From: a virus
Lineage: Duplodnaviria > Heunggongvirae > Uroviricota > Caudoviricetes
Virus record (IMG/VR): IMGVR_UViG_2740892426_000001
Reading direction: 5' to 3' (one strand)
DNA: 5,552 nt
The notes beneath the pieces were generated by a model. That model was not told where the DNA came from. It made no database searches and worked only from the letters and a program-made list of their open reading frames with translations. The translations under genes and the position numbers were made by a program. This document shows positions 2-5,502 of the stretch, one piece after another (the stretch's first letter is position 1; every line of letters starts with the position of its first letter).

Positions 2-1180
2 TTCTGGTTCTCGGAAAAGCGGATTACCGATATCAGGCAGGTTGAAACCACAGCCCGCTATCTTGGTACGGCGCTGTACTGGATAGCCGCCAGTATCAAT
101 ATCAAACCGGGCCATGATTATTACTTTTATATCCGCAGTGTGAACACCGTTGGCAAATCGGCATTCGTGGAGGGCGTCGGTCGGGCGAGCGATGATGCGG
201 AAGGTTACCTGGATTTTTTCAAAGGCAAGATAACCGAATCCCATCTCGGTAAAGAGCTGCTGGAAAAAGTTGATTTGACGGAGGATAACGCCAGCAGACT
301 GGATGAGTTTTCGAAAGAGTGGAAGGACGCTAACGATAAATGGAATGCCATGTGGGGCGTCAAAATTGAGCAGACCAAAGACGGCAAACATTATGTCGCG
401 GGTATTGGCCTCAGCATGGAGGACACGGAGGAAGGCAAGCTGAGCCAGTTTCTGGTTGCCGCTAACCGTATCGCGTTTATTGACCCGGCAAACGGGAATG
501 AAACGCCGATGTTTGTGGCGCAGGGCAACCAGATATTCATGAACGACGTGTTCCTGAAGCGCCTGACAGCCCCCACCATTACCAGCGGTGGCAGTCCTCC
601 GGTATTTTCCCTGACATCAGACGGAAAGCTGACCGCTAAAAATGCGGATATCAGTGGCAGAGTGAATGCGAACGCCGGGACGCTCAACAATGTCACGGTA
701 AATGAAAACTGTACGATTAAGGGCATGCTGGAGGCGACTCAGGTCAGAGGTGACTTCGTTAAAGCTGTATCCAAATCATTCCCGAAACAGGCTGGTACGT
801 GGGGTAATACGGAAACACCAAACGGGACGGTTACAGTCACCATCAGCGATGATCATAACTTTGACCGTCAAATCATTATTCCGCCCATTATCTTTAACGG
901 AATAGCGTATAGCGATCCGGGAAGTGGTAATAACCCGGGAGGTACAAGATACACGGGTTATGGTTTTGAAGTTCGCAAAAACGGTGTATTAATCGCATCC
1001 AGAGAAACTAAAGGGGCCATTCCCGGTAGTTACAGTGCAGTTATTGATATGCCTAGTGGTGGTGGTAGCGTCACTCTGGAGTTTAAGATTTTCCAGAAAG
1101 GCAATCAGGGGGCAGGGAATATCACCGACTGTACGGTGATTGTGACCAAAAAAGCGGCTTCCGGTATCAGTATTCGTTGA
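2..1180 (+). CDS. J: Tail tip / host-specificity protein J, C-terminal ~392 codons; 5' end lies upstream of the window
   Basis: Frame 2 is open from position 2 to TGA at 1178..1180, so the ATG at 140 in the ORF track is internal, not the true start. The translation (…[65 protein letters not shown]… ending …[18 protein letters not shown]) matches what I recall of the C-terminal part of lambda gpJ. Position immediately upstream of lom is the canonical lambda order. Not verified by search. Confidence 0.85.
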
Positions 1181-1250: not shown

Positions 1251-1850
1251 ATGCGTAAACTTTATGCAGCCATTTTGTCCGCAGCTATTTGTCTGGCCGT
1301 ATCCGGTGCGTCTGCATGGGCATCTGAACATCAGTCCACGCTGAGCGCGGGGTATCTTCATGCCTCGACGAACGTTCCCGGCAGCGATGATCTGAACGGG
1401 ATTAACGTGAAATACCGTTATGAGTTTACGGACACACTGGGGCTGGTGACGTCATTCAGCTATGCAGGAGACAAGAATCGCCAGCTTACCCGTTACAGCG
1501 ATATCCGCTGGCATGAAGATTCCGTGCGTAACCGCTGGTTCAGCGTGATGGCGGGGCCGTCTGTGCGCGTGAATGAATGGTTCAGCGCGTATGCGATGGC
1601 GGGTGTGTCTTACAGCCGTGTGTCGACTTTCTCCGGGGATTATCTCCGCGTAACTGACAACAAGGGGAAAACGCACGACGTGCTGACCGGAAGTGATGAC
1701 GGTCGCCACAGCAACACGTCTCTGGCGTGGGGAGCTGGCGTGCAGTTTAACCCGACCGAATCCGTGGCCATTGATATTGCTTATGAAGGCTCCGGCAGTG
1801 GCGACTGGCGCACTGACGGTTTCATCGTGGGTGTCGGTTATAAATTCTGA
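1251..1850 (+). CDS. lom: Lom outer-membrane protein (Ail/Lom/OmpX family 8-stranded beta-barrel), 199 aa
   Basis: N-terminus [24 protein letters not shown] is a typical Sec signal peptide with an AxA cleavage motif. The mature part has alternating aromatic/hydrophobic residues and ends in the C-terminal Phe (…[10 protein letters not shown]) that is typical of outer-membrane beta-barrels. The sequence matches my recollection of lambda Lom. The gene is bracketed by intrinsic terminators and sits between J and stf as in lambda. Confidence 0.9.
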
Positions 1851-1877: not shown

Positions 1878-1903
1878 GCCCGCCGGTTCAGGCGGGCTTT
1901 TTT
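1878..1903 (+). terminator. Rho-independent terminator after lom
   Basis: Stem GCCCGCC (1878..1884), loop GGTTCA, stem GGCGGGC (1891..1897), then TTTTTT (1898..1903). It lies 28 nt after the lom stop and 12 nt before the stf ATG. Confidence 0.8.
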
Positions 1904-1914
1904 GTGGGGTGAAT

Positions 1915-4875
1915 ATGGCAGTAAAGATTTCAGGTGTACTGAAAGACGGCACAGGAAAACCGGTACAGAACTGCACAATCCAGCTGAAAGCAAAACGTAA
2001 CAGTACCACGGTGGTGGTGAACACGCTGGCCTCAGAAAATCCGGATGAAGCCGGGCGTTACAGCATGGACGTTGAGTACGGTCAGTACAGCGTTATTCTG
2101 TTGGTGGAAGGCTTCCCGCCGTCACATGCCGGGACCATCACCGTGTATGAAGATTCCCGACCCGGTACGCTGAATGATTTTCTCGGTGCCATGACGGAGG
2201 ATGATGCCCGTCCTGAGGCACTGCGCCGTTTTGAACTGATGGTGGAAGAGGTGGCGCGTAACGCGTCCGCGGTGGCACAGAACACGGCAGCCGCGAAGAA
2301 GTCAGCCGGCGATGCCAGCACATCAGCCCGTGAGGCGGCAACCCATGCGACTGATGCTGCAGGCTCAGCACGCGCAGCCAGCACGTCAGCCGGACAGGCC
2401 GCGTCGTCGGCTCAGTCAGCGTCTTCCAGCGCAGGAACGGCATCAACAAAGGCCACTGAAGCGGAAAAAAGTGCTGCCGCTGCAGAGTCCTCAAAAAGCG
2501 CGGCGGCCACCAGTGCCGCTGCGGCGAAAACGTCAGAAACGAATGCGGCAGCGTCACAACAATCAGCAGCCACTTCTGCATCCACCGCGACCACAAAGGC
2601 GTCAGAAGCTGCCACCTCAGCCCGGGATGCGTCGGCTTCAAAAGAAGCGGCAAAATCATCAGAAACGAACGCATCATCAAGCGCCAGTAGTGCCGCTTCC
2701 TCGGCAACGGCGGCAGGAAATTCCGCGAAGGCGGCAAAAACGTCCGAGACGAACGCTAAGTCTTCTGAGACGGCAGCGGGACAGAGCGCCTCAGCTGCGG
2801 CAGGCTCAAAAACAGCGGCTGCGTCGTCTGCCAGTGCCGCGTCAACAAGTGCCGGGCAGGCCTCAGCCAGTGCCACCGCCGCCGGAAAATCGGCAGAAAG
2901 CGCCGCATCATCCGCTTCAACAGCCACAACGAAGGCTGGCGAAGCCACTGAACAGGCCAGCGCAGCAGCGAGTTCTGCTTCCGCAGCGAAGACATCCGAA
3001 ACGAACGCGAAAGCGTCGGAAACCAGCGCAGAATCCTCAAAAACGGCTGCCGCATCGTCAGCCAGTTCGGCGGCGTCATCGGCATCATCGGCGTCTGCTT
3101 CAAAAGATGAGGCGACCAGACAGGCGTCAGCAGCGAAGAGCAGCGCCACGACGGCATCCACGAAGGCGACAGAGGCAGCTGGCAGTGCGACGGCGGCAGC
3201 TCAGAGCAAAAGTACGGCGGAATCCGCGGCAACGCGCGCCGAGACAGCAGCTAAACGGGCAGAGGATATTGCATCCGCCGTGGCGCTTGAGGATGCGAGC
3301 ACGACGAAAAAGGGGATAGTACAGCTCAGCAGTGCGACTAACAGCACTTCCGAGTCACTGGCGGCAACGCCAAAAGCAGTTAAGGCCGCGTATGACCTGG
3401 CTAACGGGAAATACACCGCACAGGATGCAACGACAGCACAGAAAGGGATCGTTCAGCTCAGCAGCGCGACCAACAGCACATCTGAAATGCTGGCGGCAAC
3501 GCCAAAGTCGGTAAAGGCAGCCTATGACCTTGCTAACGGGAAATATACCGCTCAGGACGCTACGACAGCACAAAAAGGAATTGTCCAGCTCAGTAGTGCA
3601 ACCAACAGCGCATCTGAAACGCTTGCCGCGACACCGAAAGCAGTGAAAGCAGCTAATGATAATGCGAATGGTCGGGTACCTTCTGCCCGTAAGGTGAATG
3701 GTAAGGCGCTTTCAGCGGATATAACACTGACGCCGAAAGATATTGGTACGCTTAACTCAACAACAATGTCATTCAGCGGTGGTGCTGGTTGGTTCAAATT
3801 AGCAACGGTAACCATGCCACAGGCGAGTTCTGTTGTTTCAATTACGTTGATTGGTGGCGCGGGATTTAACGTGGGGTCACCTCAACAGGCAGGTATATCT
3901 GAACTTGTTTTGCGTGCAGGTAATGGTAATCCGAAGGGGATTACTGGTGCTTTATGGCAGCGCACATCGACAGGGTTTACAAATTTTGCCTGGGTCAATA
4001 CATCTGGTGATACTTACGATATTTACGTTGCAATCGGAAATTATGCGACTGGTGTAAATATTCAATGGGATTATACCAGTAATGCCAGCGTGACGATTCA
4101 TACGTCACCAGCATATTCTGCTAATAAGCCGGAAGGGTTAACGGACGGTACAGTTTATTCACTCTATACGCCATCAGAGCAGTTTTATCCGCCTGGCGCA
4201 CCAATCCCGTGGCCATCAGATACCGTTCCGTCTGGCTATGCCCTGATGCAGGGGCAGACTTTTGACAAATCTGCATACCCGAAACTTGCAGCCGCTTATC
4301 CGTCAGGCGTGATCCCTGATATGCGTGGCTGGACGATTAAGGGCAAACCCGCCAGTGGTCGTGCCGTATTGTCTCAGGAACAGGACGGCATTAAATCGCA
4401 CACCCACAGCGCCAGCGCATCCAGTACGGATTTGGGGACGAAAACCACATCGTCGTTTGATTACGGCACTAAATCCACGAATAACACCGGGGCTCATACG
4501 CACAGTCTGAGCGGCTCTACAAGCTCGGCCGGAGCACACTCGCACGTTGATGGTCGCAGGTTTAATACAAGCACTTTTAAAGACACCTATCAGTATGGTT
4601 CTACAGCTGTCGGAAGTAACTCATACCAGGTACAAGGGGCGGTTGGTCTGGGCATTGGCACGATGGCGAATACGAACTCTGCTGGCGCGCATACCCACTC
4701 ACTGTCCGGCACTGCTGCAAGCGCAGGTGCACACGCACATACTGTCGGTATTGGTGCTCATACGCACTCCGTTGCGATTGGCTCACATGGACACACCATC
4801 ACCGTTAACGCTGCTGGTAACGCGGAAAACACCGTCAAAAACATCGCATTTAACTATATTGTGAGGCTTGCATAA
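1915..4875 (+). CDS. stf: Side tail fibre protein Stf, full-length and uninterrupted (986 aa from ATG 1915)
   Basis: Continuous ORF ending at TAA 4873..4875. The ORF track starts at GTG 1909, but ATG 1915 preceded by GGGGTGA gives the N-terminus [26 protein letters not shown]…, which I recognise as the lambda Stf N-terminus. The C-terminus (…[70 protein letters not shown]… …[31 protein letters not shown]) matches the lambda Stf / T4 gp37-type fibre tip. A tfa gene follows immediately. Confidence 0.9.
2290..3290 (+). repeat. In-frame Ala/Ser/Thr-rich low-complexity region of stf with imperfect internal repeats
   Basis: About 330 codons dominated by GCN/TCN/ACN codons. The motif K-(T/S)-S-E-T-N-A recurs at about nt 2527, 2653, 2737 and 2989, and variants of '[12 protein letters not shown]' and 'TATTKA(S/G)EA' recur. 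Stop-free shadow ORFs on both strands (2138..2737-, 2312..3319+, 2412..3161-, 2756..3232-) are the expected by-product. Confidence 0.8.
3298..3660 (+). repeat. Three tandem in-frame repeats of about 129-132 bp (about 44 aa) inside stf
   Basis: Protein units: [43 protein letters not shown] / [44 protein letters not shown] / [32 protein letters not shown]…. Nucleotide units start near 3301, 3430 and 3562 and carry many synonymous differences, so the repeats are diverged at DNA level but conserved at protein level. My recollection of lambda Stf has a single '[14 protein letters not shown]' unit. Confidence 0.85.
4399..4794 (+). other. Array of seven His-x-His motifs in the stf C-terminal tip domain (putative metal-coordinating needle region)
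   Basis: In-frame HxH codon triplets at 4399..4407 (HTH), 4495..4503 (HTH), 4537..4545 (HSH), 4690..4698 (HTH), 4732..4740 (HAH), 4759..4767 (HTH) and 4786..4794 (HGH), mostly in the context GAHxHS/T. The T4 gp37 receptor-binding tip is known to coordinate iron ions through HxH motifs contributed by three chains. Confidence 0.6.
4861..4866 (+). promoter_or_regulatory. Shine-Dalgarno sequence for tfa, lying inside the 3' end of stf
   Basis: GTGAGG lies 8 nt upstream of ATG 4875. The stf stop TAA (4873..4875) and tfa start ATG (4875..4877) overlap as TAATG, indicating translational coupling. Confidence 0.6.
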
Positions 4876-5471
4876 TGGCATTCAGAATGAGTGAACAAGC
4901 ACGGACCATAAAAATTTATAATCTGCTGGCCGGAACTAATGAATTTATTGGTGAAGGTGATGCATATATTCCGCCTCATACAGGTCTGCCAGCAAACAGT
5001 ACCGATATTGCACCACCAGATATTCCTGCTGGCTTTGTGGCTGTTTTCAACAGTGATGAGGCATCGTGGCATCTCGTTGAAGACCATCGGGGTAAAACGG
5101 TTTATGACGTAGCGTCAGGGGACGAGTTATTTATTTCTGAACTCGGTCCGTTACCGGAAAATGTTACCTGGTTATCGCCGGAAGGGGAGTTTCAGAAGTG
5201 GAACGGCACAGCCTGGGTGAAAGATGCAGAAGCAGAAAAACTGTTCCGGATCCGAGAGGCGGAAGAAATAAAAAACAGCCTGATGCAGGTAGCCAGTGAG
5301 CATATTGCGCCACTTCAGGATGCTGTAGATCTGGAAATCGCAACGGAGGAAGAAACCTCATTGCTGGAAGCCTGGAAAAAGTATCGGGTGTTGCTGAACC
5401 GTGTTGATACATCAACTGCACCTGATATACCTCATTGCTGGAAGCCTGGAAAAAGTATCGGGTGTTGCTGA
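4875..5471 (+). CDS. tfa: Tail fibre assembly protein Tfa with a frameshifted C-terminus; 198 aa as encoded, last 13 aa non-native because of a 74-bp tandem duplication
   Basis: The translation [79 protein letters not shown]… matches my recollection of lambda Tfa (194 aa). The ORF runs into the second copy of a duplicated 74-bp segment in the +2 frame, giving …[20 protein letters not shown]-stop. Removing one copy restores …[16 protein letters not shown]-stop at TAA 5531..5533, a 194-aa product. Confidence 0.85.
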
Positions 5472-5502
5472 ACCGTGTTGATACATCAACTGCACCTGAT
5501 AT
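5355..5502 (+). repeat. Perfect 74-bp direct tandem duplication (copy 1 5355..5428, copy 2 5429..5502) at the 3' end of tfa
   Basis: ACCTCATTGCTGGAAGCCTGGAAAAAGTATCGGGTGTTGCTGAACCGTGTTGATACATCAACTGCACCTGATAT occurs twice head-to-tail with no mismatches. The flanking bases differ (A5354 vs T5428 on the left; A5429 vs T5503 on the right), so the unit is exactly 74 bp, which is not a multiple of 3. Confidence 0.95.

What the first reader, a model, noticed from the sequence alone, without database searches (positions are those of the whole stretch)
4399..4794. Seven in-frame His-x-His motifs in the fibre tip, consistent with a metal-binding needle domain
There are seven HxH triplets (HTH, HTH, HSH, HTH, HAH, HTH, HGH), the last three tightly clustered in [26 protein letters not shown]. 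This is the signature of the T4 gp37-type receptor-binding tip, in which stacked HxH motifs from three chains coordinate metal ions along the needle axis. The motif count and spacing would set the needle length and so the geometry of receptor engagement.
Basis: partly seen in the sequence, partly recalled or inferred. Interest (0 to 1): 0.45.

Follow-up and report, generated by a model that had tools for sequence, protein, structure and literature searches.

The report
Known iron-binding needle in prophage fibre
The seven His-x-His motifs are real and match, one for one, the seven iron-binding sites in the solved tip of the phage T4 long tail fibre, so this is the already well-known receptor-binding needle of a lambda-type side tail fibre in an E. 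coli prophage.

Summary
Seven in-frame HxH motifs lie at nt 4399-4794, and they contain all 14 histidines of the last ~160 residues. None of 100,000 shuffles reached seven.

The gene is stf of a lambdoid E. coli prophage, in the order J-lom-stf-tfa, 99.9% identical to many E. coli chromosomes.

The last 243 residues align to the crystal-structure chain of the T4 gp37 tip (PDB 2XGF) at E = 7.6e-88. Every HxH falls on a gp37 HxH, and the spacing is the same (32, 14, head, 14, 9, 9). In gp37 these motifs bind seven iron ions along the trimer axis, and H929/H931 are essential (papers).

Only the head between motifs 3 and 4 differs: 25% identity to T4 and 14 residues longer. This is the usual hypervariable receptor cassette.

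Across 139 related tips, motif number (4-8) changes by paired insertions on the outgoing and returning strands. That supports the idea that motif count sets needle length.

Homology between lambda Stf and T4 gp37, and the HxH-iron needle, have been published since 1989-2010. Metal content and trimer geometry were not tested; a monomer structure prediction failed.

In passing: a perfect 74-bp tandem duplication frameshifts the end of tfa.

The parts
1915..4875 (+). stf, the side tail fibre gene. It is intact, 986 aa from ATG 1915 (the ORF finder lists 988 aa from GTG 1909).
   Evidence: ORF. PF08400 N-terminal domain, 3x PF03406, PF07484 Collar, PF03335. RBS plus ATG 1915. RefSeq CDS of 2961 nt in a 99.9% identical genome.
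4195..4338 (+). Collar domain (residues 763-810), the base of the gp37-type tip.
   Evidence: PF07484, E = 9.5e-12 and 5.4e-13. Aligned to the 2XGF chain.
4399..4545 (+). Outgoing (ascending) strand of the needle. It carries HxH 1-3: 4399-4407 HTH, 4495-4503 HTH, 4537-4545 HSH. One His-free [10 protein letters not shown] spacer unit lies between motifs 1 and 2.
   Evidence: Aligns to gp37 H883/885, H915/917 and H929/931. From collar to HxH3 it is 83.5% identical to T4.
4546..4689 (+). Head (putative receptor-binding) cassette between HxH3 and HxH4, 48 residues. This is the hypervariable part.
   Evidence: 25% identical to the T4 head and 29% to the lambda head; 14 residues longer than T4. DNA identity to close lambdoid relatives collapses across roughly 4480-4740. 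The best match in isolated phages is 61%.
4690..4794 (+). Returning (descending) strand of the needle. It carries HxH 4-7: 4690-4698 HTH, 4732-4740 HAH, 4759-4767 HTH, 4786-4794 HGH, at steps of 14, 9 and 9 residues.
   Evidence: Aligns to gp37 H966/968, H980/982, H989/991 and H998/1000. From HxH4 to the C-terminus it is 77% identical to T4.
4795..4872 (+). Conserved C-terminal segment [26 protein letters not shown]. In gp37 the equivalent residues (1010-1026) rejoin the collar domain.
   Evidence: Near-identical in T4, lambda, P1-like, P2-like and siphophage tips. Domain limits are from PMC6957217.
4875..5471 (+). tfa, the tail fibre assembly chaperone. Its ATG overlaps the stf stop codon (TAATG). 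About 95% identical to lambda Tfa up to residue 185, after which it is frameshifted.
   Evidence: PF02413, E = 4.2e-40. phrog_105 'tail fiber assembly'. Pairwise alignment with lambda orf-194.
5355..5502 (+). Perfect 74-bp tandem duplication (5355-5428 = 5429-5502). It replaces the last 9 codons of tfa with 13 out-of-frame codons.
   Evidence: In the listed best hits among complete E. coli genomes, the two halves of the junction query collapse onto one 74-bp copy.
2..1180 (+). 3' end of gene J, the central tail fibre (context).
   Evidence: PF09327, PF12421. The frame is open from the left edge of the window.
1251..1850 (+). lom, an Ail/Lom outer-membrane protein gene (context). A terminator-like hairpin follows at 1879-1904.
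   Evidence: PF06316, E = 9.4e-119. Sequence read.

Best explanation
The region encodes the C-terminal receptor-binding tip of a lambda-type side tail fibre (Stf) in an E. coli prophage. It is a direct homologue of the solved T4 gp37 tip. Three chains form a collar. Each chain then runs out along the fibre axis and back again, giving a six-stranded antiparallel needle. At each HxH level the two histidines from each of the three chains (six imidazoles) bind one buried metal ion octahedrally; the metal is iron in gp37. That makes seven ions stacked on the axis. The ions act as internal rivets that fix the register and stability of the trimer. The loop-rich head between motifs 3 and 4 contacts the host receptor; this is OmpC and/or LPS in T4 and OmpC in lambda, and unknown for this head allele. 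The gene immediately downstream, tfa, encodes the chaperone needed to fold the tip. Shown here: the homology, the one-to-one motif correspondence, the spacing, the domain order and the gene context. Inferred from the homologue: trimer formation, metal binding, which metal, and the receptor role of the head.
For:: seven HxH, containing every histidine of the tip; 0 of 100,000 shuffles reach seven. E = 7.6e-88 to 2XGF, with 7 of 7 HxH aligned and the gaps confined to the head; spacing is 32,14,51,14,9,9 here and 32,14,37,14,9,9 in T4; stem identity to T4 and lambda is 77-84%. Collar domain PF07484 lies just upstream, and the 14-aa fibre repeat PF03335 matches in five stretches (39.7 bits against a cut-off of 20); a Tfa chaperone gene follows with an overlapping stop/start codon; the gene order J-lom-stf-tfa is that of lambda; in 139 distinct tips the outgoing-strand gap of 22/32/42/52 residues goes with exactly 1/2/3/4 returning-strand 9-residue HxH steps (137 of 139). 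The 14-residue steps also occur symmetrically before and after the head (137 of 138). This is what an out-and-back hairpin needle built from paired layers predicts. Papers: PMC6957217 reports seven coordinated iron atoms, with H929A and H931A lethal. PMC6116203 describes octahedral six-histidine HxH iron sites in 2XGF. PMC7291167 and PMC12617516 equate the lambda Stf tip with the gp37 tip and report OmpC binding.
Against: Nothing contradicts it. Several things are untested. No metal or trimer data exist for this protein. The only structure prediction available was a monomer, and it failed (mean pLDDT 40.3), so stacking on the axis rests on homology to 2XGF and not on a model of this sequence. 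The primary structure paper (Bartual et al. 2010) was not held in the library, so details of the iron sites come from later papers that describe it. The 74-bp duplication at the end of tfa could impair the chaperone and hence fibre assembly in this particular prophage.
Confidence: 0.93

Rival explanations
1. The fold and the sites are as described, but the bound metal is zinc (or a mixture of metals) and not iron.
For: PMC6116203 notes that the HxH site of the T4 short fibre gp12 was crystallised with zinc, although after reconstitution in a zinc salt. Nothing in the sequence discriminates Fe from Zn.
Against: The closest solved homologue, 2XGF, has iron at all seven sites; its stem is 77-84% identical and every ligand is conserved. 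The other HxH sites listed (P2 gpV, phi92 spike, R-pyocin fibres) also hold iron.
Confidence: 0.1
2. The conserved His-box segments persist mainly as DNA-level recombination linkers that let head cassettes be swapped between fibres. On this view metal binding is secondary.
For:: against PhiR26_1 and ev099 the window is 97-100% identical at the DNA level up to about nt 4480 (HxH2) and again from about 4690-4743 (HxH4/5). Between those points identity is only 27-80%, so the exchanged cassette is bounded by His boxes; three His boxes share a 15-nt DNA repeat; the same head class occurs in lambdoid phages and in the 170-kb, T4-size phage P896. From memory, not checked here: Tetart et al. (1996, 1998) proposed recombination between these conserved motifs.
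Against: This does not compete with the structural role, and both can hold. Histidines are conserved at the protein level even where the DNA has diverged (T4 DNA identity is 40-80% across the stem). H929A and H931A are lethal in T4.
Confidence: 0.05
3. The iron in the fibre is functional bait ('Ferrojan horse'): it mimics siderophore-bound iron so the phage can engage iron-uptake receptors, or it serves as an iron store.
For: The hypothesis is discussed for HxH-bearing fibres in PMC11705849, which cites Bonnain et al. 2016.
Against: In gp37 each ion is fully coordinated by six histidines inside the trimer core. The known receptors of the T4 and lambda homologues are OmpC and LPS, not siderophore receptors. 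No evidence from this window points to an iron-uptake receptor.
Confidence: 0.02

Closest known systems
Bacteriophage T4 long tail fibre distal subunit gp37, receptor-binding tip (PDB 2XGF; residues 811-1026)
   Same: It has the same domain order: collar, out-and-back needle, head. It has seven HxH motifs at aligned positions with identical spacing outside the head. The stem is 77-84% identical, the C-terminal [15 protein letters not shown] is near-identical, and a dedicated folding chaperone gene lies immediately downstream.
   Different: The head cassette is only 25% identical and 14 residues longer. Of the T4 head residues reported as essential (I933, N937, G938, G940, G942, G943, S947, Y949), only G942 is kept in the HMMER alignment, so receptor specificity probably differs. 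The rest of the protein is a lambdoid Stf shaft, not gp37. The chaperone is a lambda-type Tfa (PF02413), not gp38.
Bacteriophage (Ur-)lambda side tail fibre Stf (orf-401 + orf-314 in lambda PaPa) with Tfa
   Same: The gene order is the same (J-lom-stf-tfa), as is the PF08400 N-terminal domain. The collar and needle are 80-84% identical. Tfa is about 95% identical over its first 185 residues.
   Different: Lambda has eight HxH. It carries one extra 10-residue SFDYGTK unit on the outgoing strand and one extra 9-residue IGAHQHPVV unit on the returning strand. The head is 29% identical. This Stf is 986 aa against 774 aa for Ur-lambda (that length is from PMC7291167). It has a longer Ala/Ser-rich shaft and an extra ~190-residue segment before the collar with no Pfam or PDB match. 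The gene here is intact, whereas lambda PaPa carries a frameshift.
Other HxH iron sites in trimeric phage fibres and spikes (R1/R2 pyocin fibres, P2 gpV, phi92 spike, T4 gp12)
   Same: They use the same octahedral site built from one HxH per chain on a three-fold axis (PMC6116203).
   Different: Those proteins have one site or a few, in unrelated folds. Here seven sites form a repeating needle, and the sequence homology is to gp37 only (the second PDB hit, a short tail fibre, 9CUY, matches the collar region only).

Membership tests
T4 gp37-type receptor-binding tip (collar-needle-head, PDB 2XGF) | Significant sequence homology to the crystallised gp37 tip over its whole length | tested here: met
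   E = 7.6e-88, 297.6 bits. Query residues 16-258 align to chain residues 15-242.
T4 gp37-type receptor-binding tip (collar-needle-head, PDB 2XGF) | Histidines at the positions of the metal-binding HxH motifs of gp37 | tested here: met
   7 of 7 motifs align (831/863/877/928/942/951/960 to 883/915/929/966/980/989/998). H929/H931 are named as iron ligands in PMC6957217.
T4 gp37-type receptor-binding tip (collar-needle-head, PDB 2XGF) | Phage tail collar domain immediately before the needle, and a conserved C-terminal segment that returns to it | tested here: met
   PF07484 at residues 763-810. The C-terminal 26 residues are near-identical to T4.
T4 gp37-type receptor-binding tip (collar-needle-head, PDB 2XGF) | Out-and-back hairpin topology: units on the outgoing and returning strands are matched | tested here: met
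   paired-module rule in 137 of 139 related tips. The window fits it (32 residues out; 14 out and 14 back; 9 + 9 back).
T4 gp37-type receptor-binding tip (collar-needle-head, PDB 2XGF) | Homotrimer with HxH side chains stacked on the three-fold axis | tested here: inconclusive
   Only a monomer AlphaFold2 run was possible, and it gave mean pLDDT 40.3 and pTM 0.16. No fold search was run on it. The feature is inferred from homology only.
T4 gp37-type receptor-binding tip (collar-needle-head, PDB 2XGF) | Seven bound iron ions per trimer | not testable with these tools
   Requires metal analysis or a crystal or cryo-EM structure of this protein.
T4 gp37-type receptor-binding tip (collar-needle-head, PDB 2XGF) | Dedicated assembly chaperone encoded directly downstream | tested here: met
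   tfa at 4875-5471; PF02413 E = 4.2e-40; stop/start overlap TAATG. Caveat: the last 9 codons are frameshifted by a 74-bp duplication.
Lambdoid side tail fibre Stf | PF08400 prophage tail fibre N-terminal domain, and position between lom and tfa downstream of J | tested here: met
   PF08400 E = 7.7e-72, plus Ail/Lom and the J C-terminal domains; same order in lambda and in the annotated E. coli prophage.

The most novel reading that the evidence does not exclude
The gp37/Stf needle is a quantised molecular ruler. Across 139 distinct tips, the number of metal layers (4-8) changes only by paired modules. In the collar-proximal part, a 10-residue His-free SFDYGTKxT unit on the outgoing strand is matched by a 9-residue IGAHxHxVx unit on the returning strand (1 to 4 pairs). 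In the distal part, 14-residue HxH units occur symmetrically on both strands (0, 1 or 2 pairs). If this rule has not been stated explicitly before, it gives a design grammar for lengthening or shortening engineered fibres. Separately, this window's head allele (at most 61% identical to any head in isolated phages) may recognise a receptor other than OmpC.
Probability: 0.3. Interest if true: 0.25.

Novelty: already known. Interest (0 to 1): 0.1.

Why it matters
It matters little for discovery. The motifs mark a well-characterised structural device whose structure (T4 gp37, 2010), genetics, and homology to lambda Stf are all published. The same gene is present at 99.9% identity in many sequenced E. 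coli chromosomes. There is some practical value. The fixed His-box framework with a swappable head is what makes these fibres attractive for host-range engineering. The paired-module spacing rule seen across the family shows which insertions and deletions nature tolerates in the needle.

Tried and rejected
1. Structure prediction. AlphaFold2 on the 258-residue tip, with a 30-sequence alignment, gave mean pLDDT 40.3 and pTM 0.16. That is unusable, as expected for a monomer of an intertwined, metal-bound trimer, so I ran no fold search. The tool cannot model trimers or metals.

2. The primary structure paper (Bartual et al. 2010, PNAS) could not be read by DOI or by PMC id. I relied on later open papers that describe it.

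3. Chance or low-complexity origin of the HxH motifs is rejected by the shuffles and by position-specific conservation.

4. A literature search for the closest isolated phages (PhiR26_1 and relatives), to find the receptor of this head class, returned nothing relevant. The receptor of this allele stays unknown.

5. The segment before the collar (nt 3640-4200) was searched against the PDB and Pfam, with no hit. It matches only PHROG tail-fibre families and families of unknown function.

6. An in-frame stop in J upstream of nt 140 was suspected from the ORF list. Translation shows the frame is open to the edge of the window.
Full report
**What the window is**

The 5552-bp window carries the 3' end of gene J (nt 2-1180), lom (1251-1850), a long tail-fibre gene (ORF 1909-4875) and a tail-fibre assembly gene (4875-5471). 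All four are on the + strand. Pfam assigns them as follows:
- J: the J C-terminal receptor-binding domains.
- lom: Ail/Lom, E = 9.4e-119.
- The fibre: PF08400 prophage tail fibre N-terminal domain (E = 7.7e-72), three PF03406 repeats, PF07484 Collar, and the 14-residue PF03335 fibre repeat.
- The last gene: PF02413, Tfa.

This is the J-lom-stf-tfa module of phage lambda. The whole window is 99.9% identical to prophages in many complete E. coli chromosomes. Some match to it was found in 5344 of 5426 genomes. The true stf start is probably ATG 1915. It follows a lom terminator hairpin and a GGGGTGA ribosome-binding site. The RefSeq CDS in a 99.9% identical genome is 2961 nt, or 986 aa. I keep the ORF finder's numbering (988 aa from GTG 1909).

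**Check of the observation**

| Motif | Residue | Sequence | Nucleotides |
|---|---|---|---|
| 1 | 831 | HTH | 4399-4407 |
| 2 | 863 | HTH | 4495-4503 |
| 3 | 877 | HSH | 4537-4545 |
| 4 | 928 | HTH | 4690-4698 |
| 5 | 942 | HAH | 4732-4740 |
| 6 | 951 | HTH | 4759-4767 |
| 7 | 960 | HGH | 4786-4794 |

They use 14 of the protein's 17 histidines, and every histidine after residue 731. None of 100,000 shuffles of the last 250 residues reached seven motifs (maximum 6). Shuffles of the whole protein gave at most 3.

**What it is**

A sequence search of the last 258 residues against all PDB chains gave one strong hit: 2XGF, the T4 long tail fibre protein gp37 tip. The E-value is 7.6e-88, and query residues 16-258 align to chain residues 15-242.

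Every HxH aligns with a gp37 HxH. In gp37 numbering the partners are 883, 915, 929, 966, 980, 989 and 998. The spacing is 32, 14, 51, 14, 9, 9 here and 32, 14, 37, 14, 9, 9 in T4. The only difference is the segment between motifs 3 and 4.

Identity by segment:

| Segment | vs T4 | vs lambda orf-314 |
|---|---|---|
| Collar to motif 3 | 83.5% | 84% |
| Head | 25% | 29% |
| Motif 4 to C-terminus | 77% | 80% |

PF03335 matches the tip in five stretches (39.7 bits against a cut-off of 20). This means the 14-residue His-box repeat already has a curated family.

**How the homologue works (from papers)**

- gp37 residues 811-881 and 1010-1026 form a collar domain, and 882-1009 form the elongated needle.
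- Seven coordinated iron atoms lie along the needle. H929 from the three chains forms one site. Alanine substitution of H929 or H931 abolishes plaque formation (PMC6957217).
- The iron sites are octahedral, made of six histidines from three symmetry-related HxH motifs. Similar sites occur in pyocin fibres and phage spikes. T4 gp12 was crystallised with zinc at such a site (PMC6116203).
- The needle is a six-stranded antiparallel beta structure, with the chains intertwining into a head that holds the receptor site (PMC9659904; PMC7291167).
- The lambda Stf tip has long been equated with the gp37 tip. It binds OmpC, and its parts can functionally replace T4 parts (Montag 1989 and Hendrix & Duda 1992, as cited; Ur-lambda cryo-EM, PMC12617516). 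HxH conservation in lambda is mentioned in PMC11705849.

**Most likely mechanism here**

By homology, three Stf chains form the collar. Each chain runs out (motifs 1-3) and back (motifs 4-7). At each level, six imidazoles bind one buried ion. The seven ions lock the register and stabilise the trimer. The head contacts the receptor. Tfa, whose ATG overlaps the stf stop codon, folds the tip.

Shown here: homology, motif correspondence, spacing, domain order and gene context. Inferred: trimer formation, metal occupancy, which metal, and the receptor.

**Does motif count set needle length?**

I collected related tips from two database searches and measured HxH spacing in 139 distinct complete tips. 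Counts range from 4 to 8.

- The gap between motifs 1 and 2 on the outgoing strand is quantised at 22, 32, 41/42 or 52 residues. It goes with exactly 1, 2, 3 or 4 nine-residue HxH steps at the C-terminal end of the returning strand (137 of 139). The two exceptions lack motif 2.
- The 14-residue steps next to the head occur symmetrically: none on either side in 52 tips, one on each side in 84, two on each side in 1, and asymmetric in 1.
- Lambda (42, 14, 48, 14, 9, 9, 9) differs from this window by one extra SFDYGTK unit going out and one extra IGAHQHPVV unit coming back.

The further step, to 'geometry of receptor engagement', is not tested.

**The variable head**

The 48-residue head (nt 4546-4689) is the only diverged part. 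Islam et al. list eight T4 head residues as essential. Only G942 is retained in the HMMER alignment, so the T4 contact set is not conserved.

At the DNA level, the window is 97-100% identical to the lambdoid phages PhiR26_1 and ev099 up to about nt 4480, and again from about 4690-4743. Between those points identity falls to 27-80%. The exchanged cassette is therefore bounded by His boxes, three of which share a 15-nt repeat.

The best head match in 50,697 phage records is 61%. Those matches are in several lambdoid phages and in P896, a 170-kb phage of T4-like genome size. This is the familiar mosaic exchange of adhesin cassettes. The receptor of this allele is unknown (one search found no literature).

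**What failed**

A monomer AlphaFold2 model was unusable (mean pLDDT 40.3). I ran no fold search on it. The Bartual 2010 paper was not held.

**Noticed outside the finding**

- A perfect 74-bp tandem duplication (5355-5428 = 5429-5502) changes the last nine codons of tfa. The 99.9% identical E. coli genome ends ...[12 protein letters not shown], lambda ends ...PDIEWPAVPVME, and the window ends ...[16 protein letters not shown]. In the listed complete genomes the junction query collapses onto a single 74-bp copy. If the duplication is real, it could affect the chaperone on which the needle's folding depends.
- A ~190-residue segment before the collar has no Pfam or PDB relative.
- Three PF03406 repeats form a 132-nt tandem array.
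- The Ala/Ser-rich shaft produces long spurious ORFs in other frames.

**Verdict**

But this is the textbook gp37/Stf iron needle in a very common E. coli prophage gene. Novelty: already known. Interest: 0.1. The most novel reading left open is that the quantised paired-module rule, or a new receptor for this head allele, has not been described. Either would be of modest interest.

Noticed in passing
window 5355-5502 (3' end of tfa): There is a perfect 74-bp tandem duplication (5355-5428 = 5429-5502). Because 74 is not a multiple of 3, it frameshifts the last 9 codons of tfa: ...[16 protein letters not shown] here, against ...[12 protein letters not shown] in a 99.9% identical E. coli prophage. 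In the listed best hits among complete E. coli genomes, the junction query collapses onto one copy. It could be a recent mutation, an assembly artefact, or a change that disables the chaperone.
   Followed up: partly
window 4399-4794 and 139 related tips (proteins P0001-P0263): HxH spacing is quantised across the family. An outgoing-strand gap of 22/32/42/52 residues pairs with 1/2/3/4 returning-strand 9-residue HxH steps (137 of 139). The 14-residue steps are symmetric around the head (137 of 138). Motif counts range from 4 to 8.
   Followed up: yes
window 3640-4200 (Stf residues ~578-764): A segment of about 190 residues lies between the PF03406 repeats and the collar. It has no Pfam hit (E up to 1) and no PDB sequence relative. 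It matches only PHROG tail-fibre families and families of unknown function (phrog_3299, phrog_21552). The corresponding region differs in lambda, PhiR26_1 and ev099.
   Followed up: partly
window ~4480-4740: There is a mosaic break at the DNA level. Identity to PhiR26_1 and ev099 drops from 97-100% to 27-80% between His boxes 2 and 4/5, then returns to 100%. The head class is shared with P896, a 170-kb phage of T4-like genome size (61% identity). This is consistent with cassette exchange at His boxes.
   Followed up: partly
window 3308-3653: A 132-nt tandem repeat, 2.6 copies at 80% match, encodes the three PF03406 'phage tail fibre repeat' units ([27 protein letters not shown]).
   Followed up: no
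window ~2240-3290 (Stf residues ~110-460): A long Ala/Ser/Thr-rich low-complexity shaft, longer than in lambda Stf (986 aa total against 774). It generates long spurious ORFs in other frames and on the opposite strand, for example 2312-3319 + (335 aa) and 2412-3161 - (249 aa).
   Followed up: no
window 1879-1915: A terminator-like GC hairpin with a T-run (CCGCCGGTTCAGGCGGGCTTTTTT) follows lom. After it come GGGGTGA and ATG 1915, the likely true stf start. The ORF finder's GTG 1909 adds two residues.
   Followed up: partly
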